Source: Eledone cirrhosa (lineage: Eukaryota). From it: a stretch of DNA of 64,000 nucleotides. The notes below the pieces were generated by a model that worked only from the letters and a program-made list of their open reading frames with translations, did no database searches and was not told the DNA's origin. The translations under genes were made by a program, and so were the position numbers. Position 1 is the stretch's first letter, and every line of letters begins with the position of its first letter. Shown here piece after piece: positions 40,173-49,703 of this stretch. The DNA lies in assembly GCA_964016885.1 (NCBI GenBank), contig OZ024742.1, positions 7,564,001 through 7,628,000 of the forward strand, in the 5' to 3' direction.

Positions 40173-41968
40173 CAATATATAAACAGTTTTATAAATAATT
40201 TTGACGTACCCTATTAGAAGCGACCATTATTTTTGGAAGCTGTCTGGATAGTGAGATGTTTATAATTATTTTATTAGTTATAGTGTTAAGCACAGTTAGA
40301 AAAAAGACGGAGAGAAAAAACGGAGAGAAAGAGAAAACGGAGAGAGAGAAGGAGAGAGAAAAAGAAGGAGAGAGAGAAAAAGGAAGATATATATAAATAG
40401 TTAGGAGGAAATGAAAAAGAAAAAAGAAAAAAAGAAGAAAGGCAAAAGAAAGCAACAGAGAGATAATAATTCATCATACAGATACTGAAACTCAAGAGAG
40501 AGGAAGTCCTATATAGAGAGAAGAGGATACAGTGACAACTTTACGTCATGTCATATTAAGTTGAATTAACAATTCATATGAAATGAATAATAAAAATGCA
40601 AATATCAATATTCATGAATGAGACATAGATATATAATATGAGAAAATAACATTGTTCAGTAATGACCATATGTTTAGTTTAAAACTCTGAGGTCAATATA
40701 CCAAAATCTGAGTTAAAACCCTCAAAAATTACCCTATTTATAAAAATACGGATACATATATGTATATATATATACACGCATATGTACGTACTGAAAAAAG
40801 AAAAAAGAGAAAATTATGTCTACTCTAGTCAATAATATAGACATACAAATGATTTCACCTGATCACTTCTATACATTTCTTGTGTTATAAAAATTTCACA
40901 GTATATATACATAAAACATACGATTAATATTCATGTGCTCACATACATGATTACCGTTCATGTATTTAATATTATGCACATCTGCACCACACATCAACAT
41001 ATACACACAGAACCATACATATACATATATATATGTATAAATAAATATATGCGTGAGTTTTCCAGCATCGTTATGCACATATACAGACATATATACGAAC
41101 ACATAAATAAACTCTATAAACCTTCTATATGCATGTTAATACACACAAATGGCCTTTGTATAGAGATAATCAAATATCAATATATTAATACAGAAATATC
41201 AAAGCATTAAAATATCTTTAACACACTATAGAGTATCTCAAGCCAAAACAATATGCTTCATATATTTATTATAGAAATCTATCCTACCTATATTTCAAAC
41301 AAGATATTGCAAGGGTAGACATATGAAAGTTACTAGAAGCTATCAGAGTCAAAATTCAAATAAAAAAACAAAAATTATTTAAAAGATTTAGAAGACCCAG
41401 TGATTCTACGGATGCCCTTATATTTAGTATAGAAATTTATCTTACGTAAATTTTATTTAATACATTGGGAACATATACATTTTAGAGTAGTTTATTATAT
41501 CCTTGTTTATATTTAGGAAGAAAGTTTAAAAAGAAAAAGGTGAAGGAATCAAATGATTTATCGTCAGGTTTCATATATTAACTAAATTTCTTAATTAATT
41601 ATATTACATTTTAAATTTATATTTATATTTAAACGTTGAGTTCAATCTATGTCTGCAGCAACTGATTGAACTTAAAAATTAGCAACTGATTGAAATAAAA
41701 AATTAGAATTGGAGCTCTGAATTAGCAATATATATATGGATGTATATATAATGTATTTTGCAATACACTTTATGCTTAATTAAAAGCATTTTGAAGACCG
41801 TATGCTATTGTTTTAGAGTAGTGACAATTTCATTTACTTCAGAGCTCCAATTCTAATTTTTAATTTCTGCCTGACCAACAACCGCTCTGTATAATCAGTT
41901 CCTGATTATTTACTAGAATTCTATAAGAATATAACATCAGTGATCTCGATAGACAGGAGGGAGTAGTT

Positions 41969-42013
41969 AGCCTTGATAAGCATCAATAAATGCGAAACAA
42001 GGCCTTGTCGGCT
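41969..42013 (+). ncRNA. Type I hammerhead ribozyme, U3:A8 variant, GUC site
   Basis: AGCC-TTGATAA-GCAT caataa ATGC-GAAA-CAAGGCCTTG-TC-GGCT; stem I extends via GACAGGAGGGAG / CTCCTCTGTT. Confidence 0.85.
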
Positions 42014-42112
42014 TATCTCCTCTGTTTGCTGAGATTAAAGTAAGTGAATTTGTCACTACTTTAAAACAATAGCACACGGTCTTCAAAATGCTTTCGTTCG
42101 AATTGCTCTTCT

Positions 42113-43813
42113 TTGAACTTAAATTTATGGTTTGGTACTTCTGAAGTGATTGACTGGTTCAACAAATTGAATAATAAAAACAAACTAAAATTTGTTCAAT
42201 TTGATATTGCCAGCTACTATTCTTCTATTTCGCCTTCACTTCTCAACAATGCTCTATCTTTCGCATTTAAATATTCTGACATCACCACAGATGAACTTCA
42301 CATCATTCTCAACGCACGTAAAACCATCCTTTTCAACAATGAATATTGGACCAGAGCTGATACCTCTAACAACTTCGACATCACAATGGGAGCATCCGAT
42401 TCATCCCAATTGACAGATTTAATTGGTATCTTTATTTTGAACTCTTTGAGTCGGAAAATTCCTCAACTTCGCGGTGGAATTTATCGTGACGATGGACTCT
42501 TTACTATCTTAAATTGCAACATAGTTAACCTTAATATTATTAAGAACAATATACGTAATCTCTTTAACCAACATAACCTAAAAATTGAATTTGATAACAG
42601 CATCAAACTAGCTAATTTCTTGGATGTATCTCTTAATCTTGATACTGGCCTATATTACCCCTACCATAAAAACAATGAGAACTTAAATTATGTTAATTTT
42701 AAATCTAACCCCCCTACTAATATTAAGAATGCTATAGTTAGTAATATTGGAAAAAGAATATCTAACCTATCTTCTAATAAAAACATCTTCGATGCTAACG
42801 CCAATTACTATAATAACGCTCTTTCTAAAGCCGGCTATCCTGATAAAATCAAATATAATAAAGAAACAAATTCTAGAAAATCTTACAGTAGAATAATTAA
42901 TCATGATCATTCCAATAACTTTAATAAAAGACCTAGATACAAAAACATAATCTGGTATAATGCTCCTTTCTCCATCTCTATTAATAATAATATTCCTAAA
43001 TTATTCTTTAGTGCCTTAAATAAATGCTTCCCTCCCTCACATATCTATAGTAAAATATTTAACAAACACACTATAAAATTTTCCTATTCGACATCCTCCA
43101 ACATTTCCAACATTATCTCTAAACACAACAATAAATTACTAAATACTAAATCTCTTCCTTCCAACACTGAATATCATAATAATAGTAATAGTACTCCCGA
43201 CGTCATTGTAAACCCTAGGCTAATTTCTGCAAACCCAAATACAACGTCAAACACAACTTCGCTAAATGTTCTTAATCCCATTCTAAATCAAGAAACTATT
43301 ATTCCTATCGCAAATAACTTCTCCAATCCAATTCCTTCTATAGATAACACTAGGTCACTCGTTAATAATCTCTCTAATCGCAATTGCAATTGCCCTGCTA
43401 AAAATAAATGTCCTCTCAACAACCATTGTCTTGATAAAAACTTAATTTACGAATGTAAAGTTATAACTGACACCAATTCCTTCACATATTTTGGCTCCAA
43501 TTCCACCTCCTTTAAAGCTCGTCTTTATAATCATCATTCGTCTTTTAAATATAAACTTAAAAGAACCAACACGGCTCTCTCAGAACTCATATGGTCCTTG
43601 AAAGACAAAAATATTAAATATAACATCTCTTGGAAAAAGGTTTCCTCTGCTTCTCCATACTTGAACAGTTCTCTATCCAAGACTTGCAATCTCTGTCTGA
43701 ATGAAAAATGTACCATTATTTCTAATTTAGATTCTATAATAAATAGACGCACTGACTTGTTTCTTATCTGCTTGCATAAATTCCACAAAACTTTCCATAA
43801 AGTATACAGCTAA
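42113..43813 (+). CDS. 5'-truncated Naiad-like PLE RT + GIY-YIG, still open for 566 aa
   Basis: QFDIASYY, FDITMGASD, GIYRDDGL, NFLDV, IIWYNAPFS, CNC..CPL..C, LIYEC..YFG, CNLCLNEK, C.H. Confidence 0.88.
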   Translation: MNLNLWFGTSEVIDWFNKLNNKNKLKFVQFDIASYYSSISPSLLNNALSFAFKYSDITTDELHIILNARKTILFNNEYWTRADTSNNFDITMGASDSSQLTDLIGIFILNSLSRKIPQLRGGIYRDDGLFTILNCNIVNLNIIKNNIRNLFNQHNLKIEFDNSIKLANFLDVSLNLDTGLYYPYHKNNENLNYVNFKSNPPTNIKNAIVSNIGKRISNLSSNKNIFDANANYYNNALSKAGYPDKIKYNKETNSRKSYSRIINHDHSNNFNKRPRYKNIIWYNAPFSISINNNIPKLFFSALNKCFPPSHIYSKIFNKHTIKFSYSTSSNISNIISKHNNKLLNTKSLPSNTEYHNNSNSTPDVIVNPRLISANPNTTSNTTSLNVLNPILNQETIIPIANNFSNPIPSIDNTRSLVNNLSNRNCNCPAKNKCPLNNHCLDKNLIYECKVITDTNSFTYFGSNSTSFKARLYNHHSSFKYKLKRTNTALSELIWSLKDKNIKYNISWKKVSSASPYLNSSLSKTCNLCLNEKCTIISNLDSIINRRTDLFLICLHKFHKTFHKVYS

Positions 43814-46341: not shown

Positions 46342-46628
46342 TTATATCCCTATAGTAGGTAATACCTTCAATTTTTAATGTCCACATAGTTCTTCTCTCT
46401 AGAATTTACTTCAAGAATGATGAAACCAGTATCAAACAAATTAAATGGCCATCCATCGGTTACGGTGGGGAGTGTTACAGTTGATTCTATCAATGGAACA
46501 TAATTTCCACGAGTAGGTTGTTCCAGATTCATTGTGTAGCCTTAATATAATGAATATTAAAACTCTATTTCGGTTTTGAGTACACCTTTCTCTCAGCCGT
46601 CGACCACATTAAGATATTTATATATATA

Positions 46629-46680
<52 letters not shown>

Positions 46681-46862
46681 GAAACACACAGATACGGCCT
46701 CGATATGAATACCCCCTCCGCCTCCGTGGTATTTTCCTCGTGGTTATAAGAGGCTTAGCTCTGTTTCTCGACCGTTATATCGCGTGACTATCTCCCCCTC
46801 CGCCTTTTGGGATTCTTTCTCACGTCGTGTAGACGCGTTCTTGAGACTAGTAAAATGAGGTA

Positions 46863-46950
46863 TCCTCTTGATAAGTTGGCAGACCTCGCAGGGACTCTAT
46901 ATCTTTGATATATTGTTTTTGTTTATGCCACGAAACTACGTAGTCGAGGA
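46863..46950 (+). ncRNA. Type I hammerhead ribozyme, U3:A8, GUC site
   Basis: TCCTC-TTGATAA-GtTGGCA...TGCCAC-GAAA-CTACGTAG-TC-GAGGA. Confidence 0.85.
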
Positions 46951-47453
46951 ATTTAGGAACAGTTTAGGTATGATACATTTTATTACTAATTATATCTAAA
47001 TGTTTCTTCTCTCTTCATAATGTATTTTTAACTCTGATACTGGTTCAGTCTGGTTCAAACTGAATTGGTCTGTCCCAGTCATTCATTGAGCAACATCGGT
47101 GTAGTTGGCACCCTTAACTCACAGTTGGGTGCGGATGCATTCATGTATATATGTGTGTGTCCGCATGTATCTGTGTGTTTCTAAATATATTAATAACTCC
47201 CTCTGGTCGAGCAATCTTTGAAGTGTGGGGACAACTGGAAAGCTTCCATTACTCATACTTCTCGCCTTCTTCACTACCTCTTCTACGGCCTCGATATGAA
47301 TACCCCCTCCGCCTCCGTGGTATTTTCCTCGTGGTTATAAGAGGCTTAGCTCTGTTTCTCGACCGTTATGTCGCGTGACTATCTCCCCCTCCGCCTTTTG
47401 GGATTCTTTCTCACGTCGTGTAGACGCGTTCTTGAGACTAGTAAAATGAGGTA

Positions 47454-47541
47454 TCCTCTTGATAAGTTGGCAGACCTCGCAGGGACTCTATATCTTTGAT
47501 ATATTGTTTTTATTTATGCCACGAAACTACGTAGTCGAGGA
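47454..47541 (+). ncRNA. Type I hammerhead ribozyme (second copy, +591 nt)
   Basis: Same as 46863-46950 apart from one loop II change. Confidence 0.85.
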
Positions 47542-47607
47542 ATTTAGGAACAGTTTAGGTATGATACATTTTATTACTAATTATATCTAAATGTTTCTTC
47601 TCTCTTC

Positions 47608-47697
<90 letters not shown>

Positions 47698-48457
47698 ATC
47701 GTATATATATATATTGAATTGATCTGGAAGCTCAAACTTGAAAAGACCCCGCACTCTCTGGTCTGGTCCGTAGTTAGAAAGGTTCCCCCAGACAGATATT
47801 TGCAACCTCTGTCTTAGTGAGACACTCGAGATACTTCATGGCGGAACCAAGCATTAAACAGAAGGGCCGACTTATTCGGTACCTGCAGACACCCAAGGAC
47901 GGGAACTTTCCTCAAGCTATATGGATAAACCCCGGTTAAGGCCTCCCACAACGCTCCCCGCCCTGTAGGAACCCTACACTCCGTACCAATGACCAATGGA
48001 CAACAACAACCACCCATAGTTTGTGGTCCCTATCGTGGATGGTCCACCGGATCCTCTACTGGTTAGGAGTCATCTAAACAACGTTTTATTGAACATGATT
48101 TTATATATATGTATGTATGTATATTATATGTATGTATGTATTTTATATGTGTATATGTGTATATGTATAAAATATATATATATATACATATATAAAATAT
48201 ATATATATATATATATATTTTATATATGTATATATAAATATATATATTTTATATATATATGTGTATGTAGATTTTATATATGTATATATTTTATATATAT
48301 ATATATATATATTATGTATATATATATATTTTATATATATATGTGTATGTATATTTTATATATGTATATATTTTATATATATATATATATTTTATGTATA
48401 TACATATATTTTATATATATATGTATTTTATATATATATATATTTTATGTATATGTA

Positions 48458-49275: not shown

Positions 49276-49277
<2 letters not shown>

Positions 49278-49703
49278 CCAGGACGCAGTTGCAGGAAGCC
49301 GGATGAATGCCCATTGCAGGGCAAATGTAACACCAAATCTGTTGTTTATGAGGCTAAAGTAACACCTTTAATCAACAACCAGCCAGCCAGGAGTGAGCGA
49401 TATGTCGGCATGACCCAGGACAGGTTTAAAACCAGGTTTTATGCACATGTCGCTTCTTTTAAGCACTCCGATAAACGAACAACAACGGCCCTCGCAAGTA
49501 AAGTGTGCGAATTCAAGGATAAAAACATCCCGTACTCTATCGATTGGTCTATTTTAGACCATTCGAGGGAGTACCAAAGGGGCACAAAGAATTGTTCTTT
49601 GTGTACCACAGAAAAATATAGGATTTTGCTAAACTTGAATGCCACTTCTGCTTGCCTGAACTCAAAGAGAGAGATCTTCCGATGTTGTCCTCATCACATC
49701 TGA
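49276..49703 (+). pseudogene. Naiad-like PLE 3' fragment (GIY-YIG)
   Basis: CPLQGKC, VVYEAKV..YVGMT..FK.RF..H..SF, CSLCTTEK, LNSKRE. Confidence 0.88.

What the first reader, a model, noticed from the sequence alone, without database searches (positions are those of the whole stretch)
46673..47611. Intact two-ribozyme retrozyme predicted to release a 591-nt monomer, possibly a circRNA
Seen: two near-identical HHRs (UUGAUAA core, GUC site, palindromic CUACGUAG stem III) with predicted cleavage after 46945 and 47536; no coding capacity; a ~22-nt inverted piece at the 5' junction; (TA)n on both sides. The repeat is a permuted ~1.55-mer. Inference: this is what reverse transcription around a circular RNA would give, and the palindromic stem III suggests dimeric cleavage using both copies.
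Basis: partly seen in the sequence, partly recalled or inferred. Interest (0 to 1): 0.82.

Follow-up and report, generated by a model that had tools for sequence, protein, structure and literature searches.

The report
Two-armed Penelope-copied hammerhead retrozyme
This is one copy of a young, abundant, non-coding jumping repeat that carries a predicted self-cutting RNA, a kind already known in animals; its mirror-image insertions pair two different fixed ends, which likely records a borrowed Penelope-type enzyme copying one probably circular RNA into both sides of a DNA break.

Summary
Two U3-A8 type I hammerhead motifs have predicted cuts after 46945 and 47536 (591 nt apart), in a non-coding element between (TA)n runs. 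It is one copy of a mobile family: 774 exact core matches and 7,634 stem-III matches genome-wide, with no abutting Penelope ORF seen.

The '22-nt inverted piece' is a second arm. Family 3' ends fall at unit positions ~80 (A) or ~245 (B). Of 57 inverted insertions, 52 pair A with B, none pairs like with like, and 5 have one odd end. An ORF-bearing Penelope-like element (PLE) in the same genome pairs a short with a long end in 5 of 5 resolvable cases. This is the published PLE 'tail' signature, here about 165 nt.

Units within one insertion share private variants across both arms (0.23-0.27% differences, against 1.7% between loci), as expected from re-reading one monomer, likely a circle. Loop III stays self-complementary across subfamilies, supporting dimeric cleavage.

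Cleavage, expression, the circle and the partner enzyme are not shown. The scan reported this same 591-bp family and two-armed pattern before, on other DNA. Verdict: a known kind (animal non-LTR retrozyme) with a testable mechanistic footprint.

The parts
46614..46677 (.). left (TA)n target run
46672..46695 (-). short inverted arm: unit positions 222-245, 3' end at fixed site B, facing the left TA run; 3-nt overlap with the long arm
46693..47616 (+). long arm, 1.56 units, from unit position 339 through one full unit to fixed site A (about position 76-80; last bases ambiguous with the TA run)
46863..46950 (+). type I hammerhead motif 1: helix I 46863-46867/46946-46950, U3-A8 core 46868-46874, extended helix II 46875-46931, helix III with palindromic ACGU loop 46935-46944, predicted cut after 46945
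46946..47536 (+). 591-nt unit from cut to cut; predicted monomer or circle, 42% GC, folding z = -4.97
47018..47027 (+). site A (unit 73-82) inside the full unit: TA-like strand, family 3' end; predicted to pair with site B
47183..47192 (+). site B (unit 238-247): TA-like strand, second family 3' end, about 165 nt after site A
47454..47541 (+). type I hammerhead motif 2, predicted cut after 47536
47611..47714 (.). right (TA)n target run

Best explanation
This is one insertion of a young, protein-free repeat family with a predicted hammerhead ribozyme in each 591-nt unit (an animal non-LTR retrozyme), likely mobilised in trans by a Penelope-like element (PLE) protein that probably copies a circular monomer RNA into both ends of a break in a (TA)n run. 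Shown in the DNA: the family, the TA targets, two fixed 3' ends about 165 nt apart used one per arm in inverted insertions, variable 5' ends, exact unit junctions, and one haplotype per insertion. Inferred steps: (1) tandem copies are transcribed and two hammerheads cut as a dimer through the palindromic loop III; (2) a host ligase closes the monomer; (3) a PLE RT-endonuclease cuts a TA run, and each DNA end primes cDNA on the same RNA, one at site A and one at site B; (4) each cDNA runs round the circle for a variable length (24 nt and 924 nt here), and the two 5' ends are joined head to head.
For: End rule: of 57 two-armed insertions, 52 were A+B, 0 A+A, 0 B+B and 5 had one odd end; of 37 one-armed insertions, 21 ended at A, 15 at B and 1 elsewhere. 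Target: 144 of 146 A or B ends are followed by a TA run. Same rule in a PLE: an ORF-bearing family of this genome has ends about 36-44 and 100-115 nt after its own hammerhead, paired short with long in 5 of 5 resolvable head-to-head pairs. Published precedent: the PLE tail lies between two RT start sites and both strands are cut and extended in vitro (PMC11167929); the tail sits on one of the inverted pLTRs (PMC3846280). One template: 0.27% differences within an arm, 0.23% between arms, 1.66% between loci; 32 variants private to one locus are fixed in all covering units, 20 of them across both arms. Junctions: 260 of 260 counted unit junctions have the exact spacing; 51 of 53 A arms are longer than the 80 nt a cut linear monomer could give. 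Ribozyme under selection: 87.6% of cells paired, two-sided changes in 4 of 5 helix I pairs, and position 7 free. Dimer: loop III is self-complementary in 89 of the first 100 non-A-start variants listed (GUAC 66, GCGC 14, GCGU 5, GUGC 4; my count).
Against: No autonomous partner sharing sequence with the unit was found; the two PLE proteins tested do not match inside the arms, and the PLE family with the same end rule has different end sequences. 5' ends show no spike at the cut site (1 of 155 within 3 nt), so nothing in the DNA records cleavage. In vitro, a PLE used uncleaved RNA as its main substrate (PMC11167929). 190 variants occur in a single unit of a locus, and 71 of these also occur in other loci, which could be recurrent mutation or inheritance from a linear multimer. 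The 165-nt tail is far longer than the published 30-40 bp.
Confidence: 0.65

Rival explanations
1. Same PLE-driven two-site priming, but the template is an uncleaved linear multimer transcript of a homogeneous source array; the ribozyme acts elsewhere or rarely.
For: It gives exact junctions too. There is no 5'-end spike at the cut. Unprocessed RNA was the dominant substrate for PAc in vitro. 71 single-unit variants are shared between loci.
Against: Variants covered by two or more units are fixed in 281 cases and partial in only 13. A mutation arising in one unit must pass through a monomer step to reach all units of both arms. 5'-truncating copying alone would shorten arrays, yet 42 of 151 arms exceed two units.
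Confidence: 0.22
2. Tandems arise by RT template jumping between cut linear monomers, or by DNA-level duplication (slippage, unequal crossing-over) after a monomer has inserted.
For: Satellite-like expansion is the route discussed by Li et al. 2026; it would also homogenise units.
Against: There are no indels at 260 of 260 counted junctions (only junctions with both anchors intact were counted). The copies are dispersed arrays of one to about five units, with both arms sharing a haplotype.
Confidence: 0.07
3. The inverted arm comes from fold-back self-priming or L1-like twin priming at a random internal site, not from a second fixed start site.
For: Self-priming was proposed for palindromic PLE junctions (PMC3846280). 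Both sites are TA-like, so annealing to the target could select them.
Against: The two 5' ends lie within 30 nt of each other in only 8 of 58 junctions, against 6 expected by chance. Either site can be on either arm. One-armed copies use both sites. Annealing alone would allow A+A and B+B pairs, and none were seen.
Confidence: 0.03
4. It is a solo pLTR pair left by a truncated autonomous PLE.
For: U3-A8 cores and palindromic helix III are known from PLE pLTRs (PMC4209133).
Against: Units repeat head to tail with no ORF. No PLE protein match lies inside or within 200 nt of an arm in the retrozyme loci searched. Arm ends run into TA repeats.
Confidence: 0.03

Closest known systems
Metazoan non-LTR retrozymes (Cervera and de la Pena 2020, PMC7229834; Li, Clavereau and Pollet 2026, bioRxiv 10.64898/2026.07.22.740005)
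   Same: Non-coding tandem units, one type I hammerhead per unit, GC under 45-50% (42% here), structured monomer, dispersed monomers to multimers, co-occurrence with PLEs. Circle-templated RT by a PLE is the model those papers propose.
   Different: Unit of 591 nt (170-400 nt in the 2020 paper, within the 51-972 bp range of the 2026 one). U3-A8 core and a 57-nt extended helix II without the canonical loop 2. (TA)n targeting. Inverted two-armed insertions with two fixed 3' ends, which the passages I read do not describe for retrozymes. In the predicted circle helix I is sequestered, whereas the 2020 paper says most animal circles leave the ribozyme free.
Penelope-like elements: tail and tandem/inverted structure (Frangieh et al. 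2024, PMC11167929; PMC3846280, 2013; Craig et al. 2021, PMC8557442)
   Same: Two start sites downstream of the hammerhead, a tail on one arm only, head-to-head inverted 5'-truncated arms, partial tandems, AT-rich or (TA)n targets.
   Different: No RT or GIY-YIG ORF. The tail is about 165 nt instead of 30-40 bp. The strict one-of-each use is quantified here.
PLE hammerheads with U3-A8 core (Schistosoma Cercyon; Cervera and de la Pena 2014, PMC4209133)
   Same: U3-A8 covariation in the core; palindromic helix III thought to act as a dimer.
   Different: Here helix III keeps 2 bp plus a tetraloop and helix II is long; the motif sits in an independent tandem unit, not in a pLTR.

Membership tests
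Animal non-LTR retrozyme | Type I hammerhead motif in each tandem unit | tested here: met
   (variant U3-A8 core; not detected by Rfam)
Animal non-LTR retrozyme | Tandem units from dimers to multimers, dispersed at many loci | tested here: met
   arms up to 2,991 nt on many contigs
Animal non-LTR retrozyme | No protein coding; low GC | tested here: met
   longest ATG ORF 75 aa, GC 42%; no PLE protein match in arms
Animal non-LTR retrozyme | No LTR, PBS or PPT organisation | not tested
   No PBS or PPT search was run. The head-to-tail multimers and variable 5' ends are not LTR-like.
Animal non-LTR retrozyme | Self-cleavage of the transcript | not testable with these tools
   covariation only
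Animal non-LTR retrozyme | Expression as linear and circular monomer RNA | tested here: inconclusive
   no run on record as RNA could be examined
Autonomous Penelope-like element or its pLTR | RT plus GIY-YIG ORF joined to the repeat | tested here: not met
   (two PLE proteins of this genome as queries; other PLE clades were not used)
PLE-mobilised (works like a PLE insertion) | Two fixed 3' ends (tail), present on one arm only | tested here: met
   tail about 165 nt rather than 30-40 bp
PLE-mobilised (works like a PLE insertion) | Head-to-head inverted, 5'-truncated arms; microsatellite target | tested here: met
PLE-mobilised (works like a PLE insertion) | Sequence shared with an identified autonomous partner | tested here: inconclusive
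   none found, but only a small part of the genome's PLE families was examined
Plant LTR retrozyme | Type III hammerhead in two LTRs | tested here: not met
   type I topology; multimers instead of an LTR pair

The most novel reading that the evidence does not exclude
A single PLE protein complex binds one circular retrozyme RNA at a helix whose two strands are the two start sites (unit 73-82 paired with 238-247, closing the 165-nt domain). It primes both ends of a TA break there, one on each strand, and rolls round the circle twice independently. The PLE 'tail' would then be a looped-out RNA domain of free length, and PLE tandem and inverted insertions would be products of circle-templated, two-ended TPRT. 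Support: the A-B helix is in the consensus fold of 9 subfamily representatives and has probability about 0.4-0.5 in the monomer. Against: only 1 two-sided change is seen, both strands are AU-rich, and 4 of 7 single-sequence folds do not form it.
Probability: 0.3. Interest if true: 0.72.

Novelty: new variant of a known kind. Interest (0 to 1): 0.52.

Why it matters
Two steps have been proposed in print but, in the papers I read, not shown: that PLE proteins mobilise animal retrozymes, and that circular RNA is the template behind tandem and inverted PLE-type insertions. This family carries the PLE tail signature on a protein-free unit, uses its two start sites strictly one per arm, and keeps one haplotype per insertion. 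It offers a defined 591-nt substrate, two mapped start sites and thousands of natural products against which an in vitro PLE system can be tested. The element class itself is known, and nothing here shows cleavage or a circle.

Tried and rejected
Rfam: no hammerhead match; the variant core and long helix II probably escape the models.

Expression: no RNA holder was listed, which is no evidence either way. Four runs of unrecorded kind were laid as contigs. One holds a single 621-nt contig (591 + 30), which a circle and a tandem array would both give, so it was not used.

Run-off at the cleavage site: looked for among 155 5' ends; no spike.

Fold-back origin of the inverted arm: rejected.

Autonomous partner: a hammerhead census of 752 kb of fetched loci plus the window and looser patterns found only more ORF-less subfamilies, at 65-75% identity, and other hammerhead families with different sequences. 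30 loci of the PLE 5' region were uninformative for end pairing.

Pfam gave no family for the two PLE ORFs, and the homologue search gave almost no names. The label 'Neptune-like' rests on the C-terminal GIY-YIG domain and the cysteine linker as I recall them and as outlined in PMC8557442, not on a tree.

No target-site duplication can be read inside TA runs. The host species was not determined; the 'octopus' literature search was a guess from genome texture, and the O. vulgaris repeat paper has no mention of ribozymes in its main text.

Rows dropped: of 95 loci, 2 diverged loci below 84% identity and one 37-nt piece.

Full report
OBSERVATION. My motif scan finds type I hammerhead cores at 46868 and 47459 with a U3-A8 pair in place of C3-G8, a 57-nt helix II region, and helix III of two pairs plus the palindromic loop ACGU. 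Predicted cuts follow GUC at 46945 and 47536. The direct copies are 591 nt apart and differ at 2 of 328 positions. TA runs flank both sides. Rfam does not detect the motif. The isolated motif's active fold is 3.2 kcal/mol above its predicted minimum. The whole unit folds far better than shuffles (z = -4.97), is 42% GC and has no ATG ORF over 75 aa when read as a circle.

FAMILY. The window lies in a 3.0-Gb animal genome whose species I did not determine. The unit gave 805 first-look candidates, of which 40 were scored, at about 99% identity. Exact patterns count 774 copies of the core 17-mer, 7,634 of the stem-III 19-mer and 445 of a diverged stem-III variant, with 0 for the reversed controls. 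Diverged subfamilies at 65-75% identity are also ORF-less units. Two PLE proteins from this genome, searched against the retrozyme loci up to L157, matched only flanking DNA, never inside or within 200 nt of an arm.

THE INVERTED PIECE IS A SECOND ARM. I mapped arms in 95 loci: 38 from the best BLAST hits, 37 from the contig-1 listing, and 20 picked from the start of the listing. Two diverged loci and one 37-nt piece were dropped, and two loci held two insertions. 3' ends fall at unit position 78-83 (A) or 243-253 (B). Of 57 head-to-head insertions, 52 were A+B, none A+A or B+B, and 5 had one odd end. Of 37 one-armed insertions, 21 ended at A, 15 at B and 1 elsewhere. Either site can be on either side. 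144 of 146 such ends run into TA repeats. The two 5' ends of an insertion are unrelated (8 of 58 within 30 nt, 6 expected), and arm lengths are uncorrelated (r = 0.06). The window copy is the extreme case: a 24-nt B arm and a 924-nt A arm with a 3-nt overlap. The GUAC subfamily shows short-plus-long pairs in 6 of 7 two-armed loci, the seventh unresolved.

PLE SIGNATURE. The genome is rich in PLEs (55,921 first-look candidates for a GIY-YIG query). An ORF-bearing family (frames of about 660-750 aa) has two end classes about 36-44 and 100-115 nt after its own hammerhead. Its resolvable head-to-head pairs are short plus long in 5 of 5 cases (L063; four pairs). Two pairs had one unresolved end, and one tail-to-tail pair was set aside. 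Frangieh et al. 2024 (PMC11167929; parts 1-2 of 4 read) showed that a PLE protein cuts and extends both strands of AT-rich DNA and starts at two internal RNA sites that delimit the 30-40-bp tail. PMC3846280 (passages) notes the tail on one of the inverted pLTRs, and Craig et al. 2021 (PMC8557442, passages) describes tandem/inverted insertions and TA bias. The retrozyme thus carries the PLE footprint with a tail of about 165 nt. I infer PLE mobilisation. The partner family was not identified.

TEMPLATE. A cut linear monomer could give at most 80 nt from A, but 51 of 53 A arms are longer, and in 39 of 53 insertions both arms cross the cut site. 42 of 151 arms exceed two units. All 260 junctions with both anchors intact have the exact spacing. 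Across 405 unit pieces from 97 loci, differences are 0.27% within an arm, 0.23% between arms and 1.66% between loci. Among variants covered by two or more units, 281 are fixed, 13 partial and 190 in one unit only. 32 fixed variants are private to one locus in my sample, 20 of them across both arms, for example 9 of 9 units in L123. This points to repeated reading of one monomer, most simply a ligated circle. Against: a homogeneous linear multimer gives much the same picture in one generation; 71 of the single-unit variants recur in other loci; 5' ends show no spike at the cut (1 of 155 within 3 nt); and uncleaved RNA was the main substrate for PAc in vitro.

RIBOZYME. On 24 representative motifs, 87.6% of cells in my drawn structure pair (shuffles 82.8%, 0 of 500 as high; slid controls 34-53%), with two-sided changes in 4 of 5 helix I pairs. 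The rows were found by patterns that fix the core, so core invariance is not evidence, but position 7 varies as expected. A search that left loop III free except for a first A gave 614 matches (control 8). Of the first 100 listed, 89 are self-complementary: GUAC 66, GCGC 14, GCGU 5, GUGC 4 (my count). These count copies, not events, but ACGU, GCGU, GCGC, GUGC and GUAC form a stepwise path that never loses pairing. The stem-III 10-mer has no hairpin alone but forms a -12.9 kcal/mol duplex. Cleavage is untested. In Li et al. 2026 only 1 of 9 predicted elements cleaved.

A POSSIBLE STRUCTURAL REASON FOR TWO SITES. In the folded unit, positions 73-82 pair with 238-247 (probability about 0.4-0.5), so sites A and B would be the two strands of one helix closing the 165-nt domain. 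The helix is in the consensus fold of 9 representatives, with one two-sided change, but it forms in only 3 of 7 single-sequence folds, and both strands are AU-rich. I treat it as a hypothesis.

EXPRESSION. No RNA run was available; see Tried and rejected.

COMPARISON AND NOVELTY. It meets the sequence-level features of animal non-LTR retrozymes (PMC7229834: passages and Discussion read; bioRxiv 10.64898/2026.07.22.740005: parts 1-3 of 5 read). Both papers propose PLE mobilisation, and the circle-template idea is also in PMC4209133. Five literature searches (listings, plus the papers named) did not show a report of the PLE tail or of one-of-each two-armed insertions in a retrozyme. The library lacks most subscription papers, and I did not see any supplementary files, where such structures could be drawn. 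Earlier AI notes of this scan describe the same 591-bp family and the same two-armed pattern, also in other families and genomes. I had reached this reading before looking and do not count them as support.

VERDICT. A real, likely recently active retrozyme family of a known kind. Its value lies in the insertion footprint, which makes two proposed steps, PLE-driven mobilisation and circle-templated two-ended copying, directly testable. Interest 0.52.

Noticed in passing
window 41960-43813 (+), inverted piece about 41684-41870: [quoted passage not shown] The frame seems to start mid-RT. It is a different family from the retrozyme.
   Followed up: partly
window 49276-49703 (+): 5'-truncated PLE endonuclease fragment starting directly after a TA run; member of a very abundant family with intact copies of about 715 aa elsewhere.
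   Followed up: yes
window 45415 (-), 45640 (+), 44746 (+), 40164 (-), 22445 (-): Further minimal C3-G8 type I hammerhead motifs of other families; 45415 and 45640 form a head-to-head pair.
   Followed up: no
L164, L167-L196: Older subfamily (445 stem-III matches) with loop GUAC, 65-75% identical to the window unit, ends at about 52-77 and 224-245 nt after the cut.
   Followed up: yes
window unit positions 1-71 (46946-47016): In the predicted circle the five bases after the cut pair with positions 67-71 instead of forming helix I, which would keep the circle from re-cutting. A GAGG-TAT-CCTC hairpin just upstream of the core could also compete with helix I.
   Followed up: partly
L099, L117, L152: Another U3-A8 hammerhead family with a long helix II and a 17-nt helix III, ending 15-20 nt after the cut in TA runs.
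   Followed up: no
L037, L105: Two separate two-armed insertions of different haplotypes lie side by side in TA runs.
   Followed up: partly
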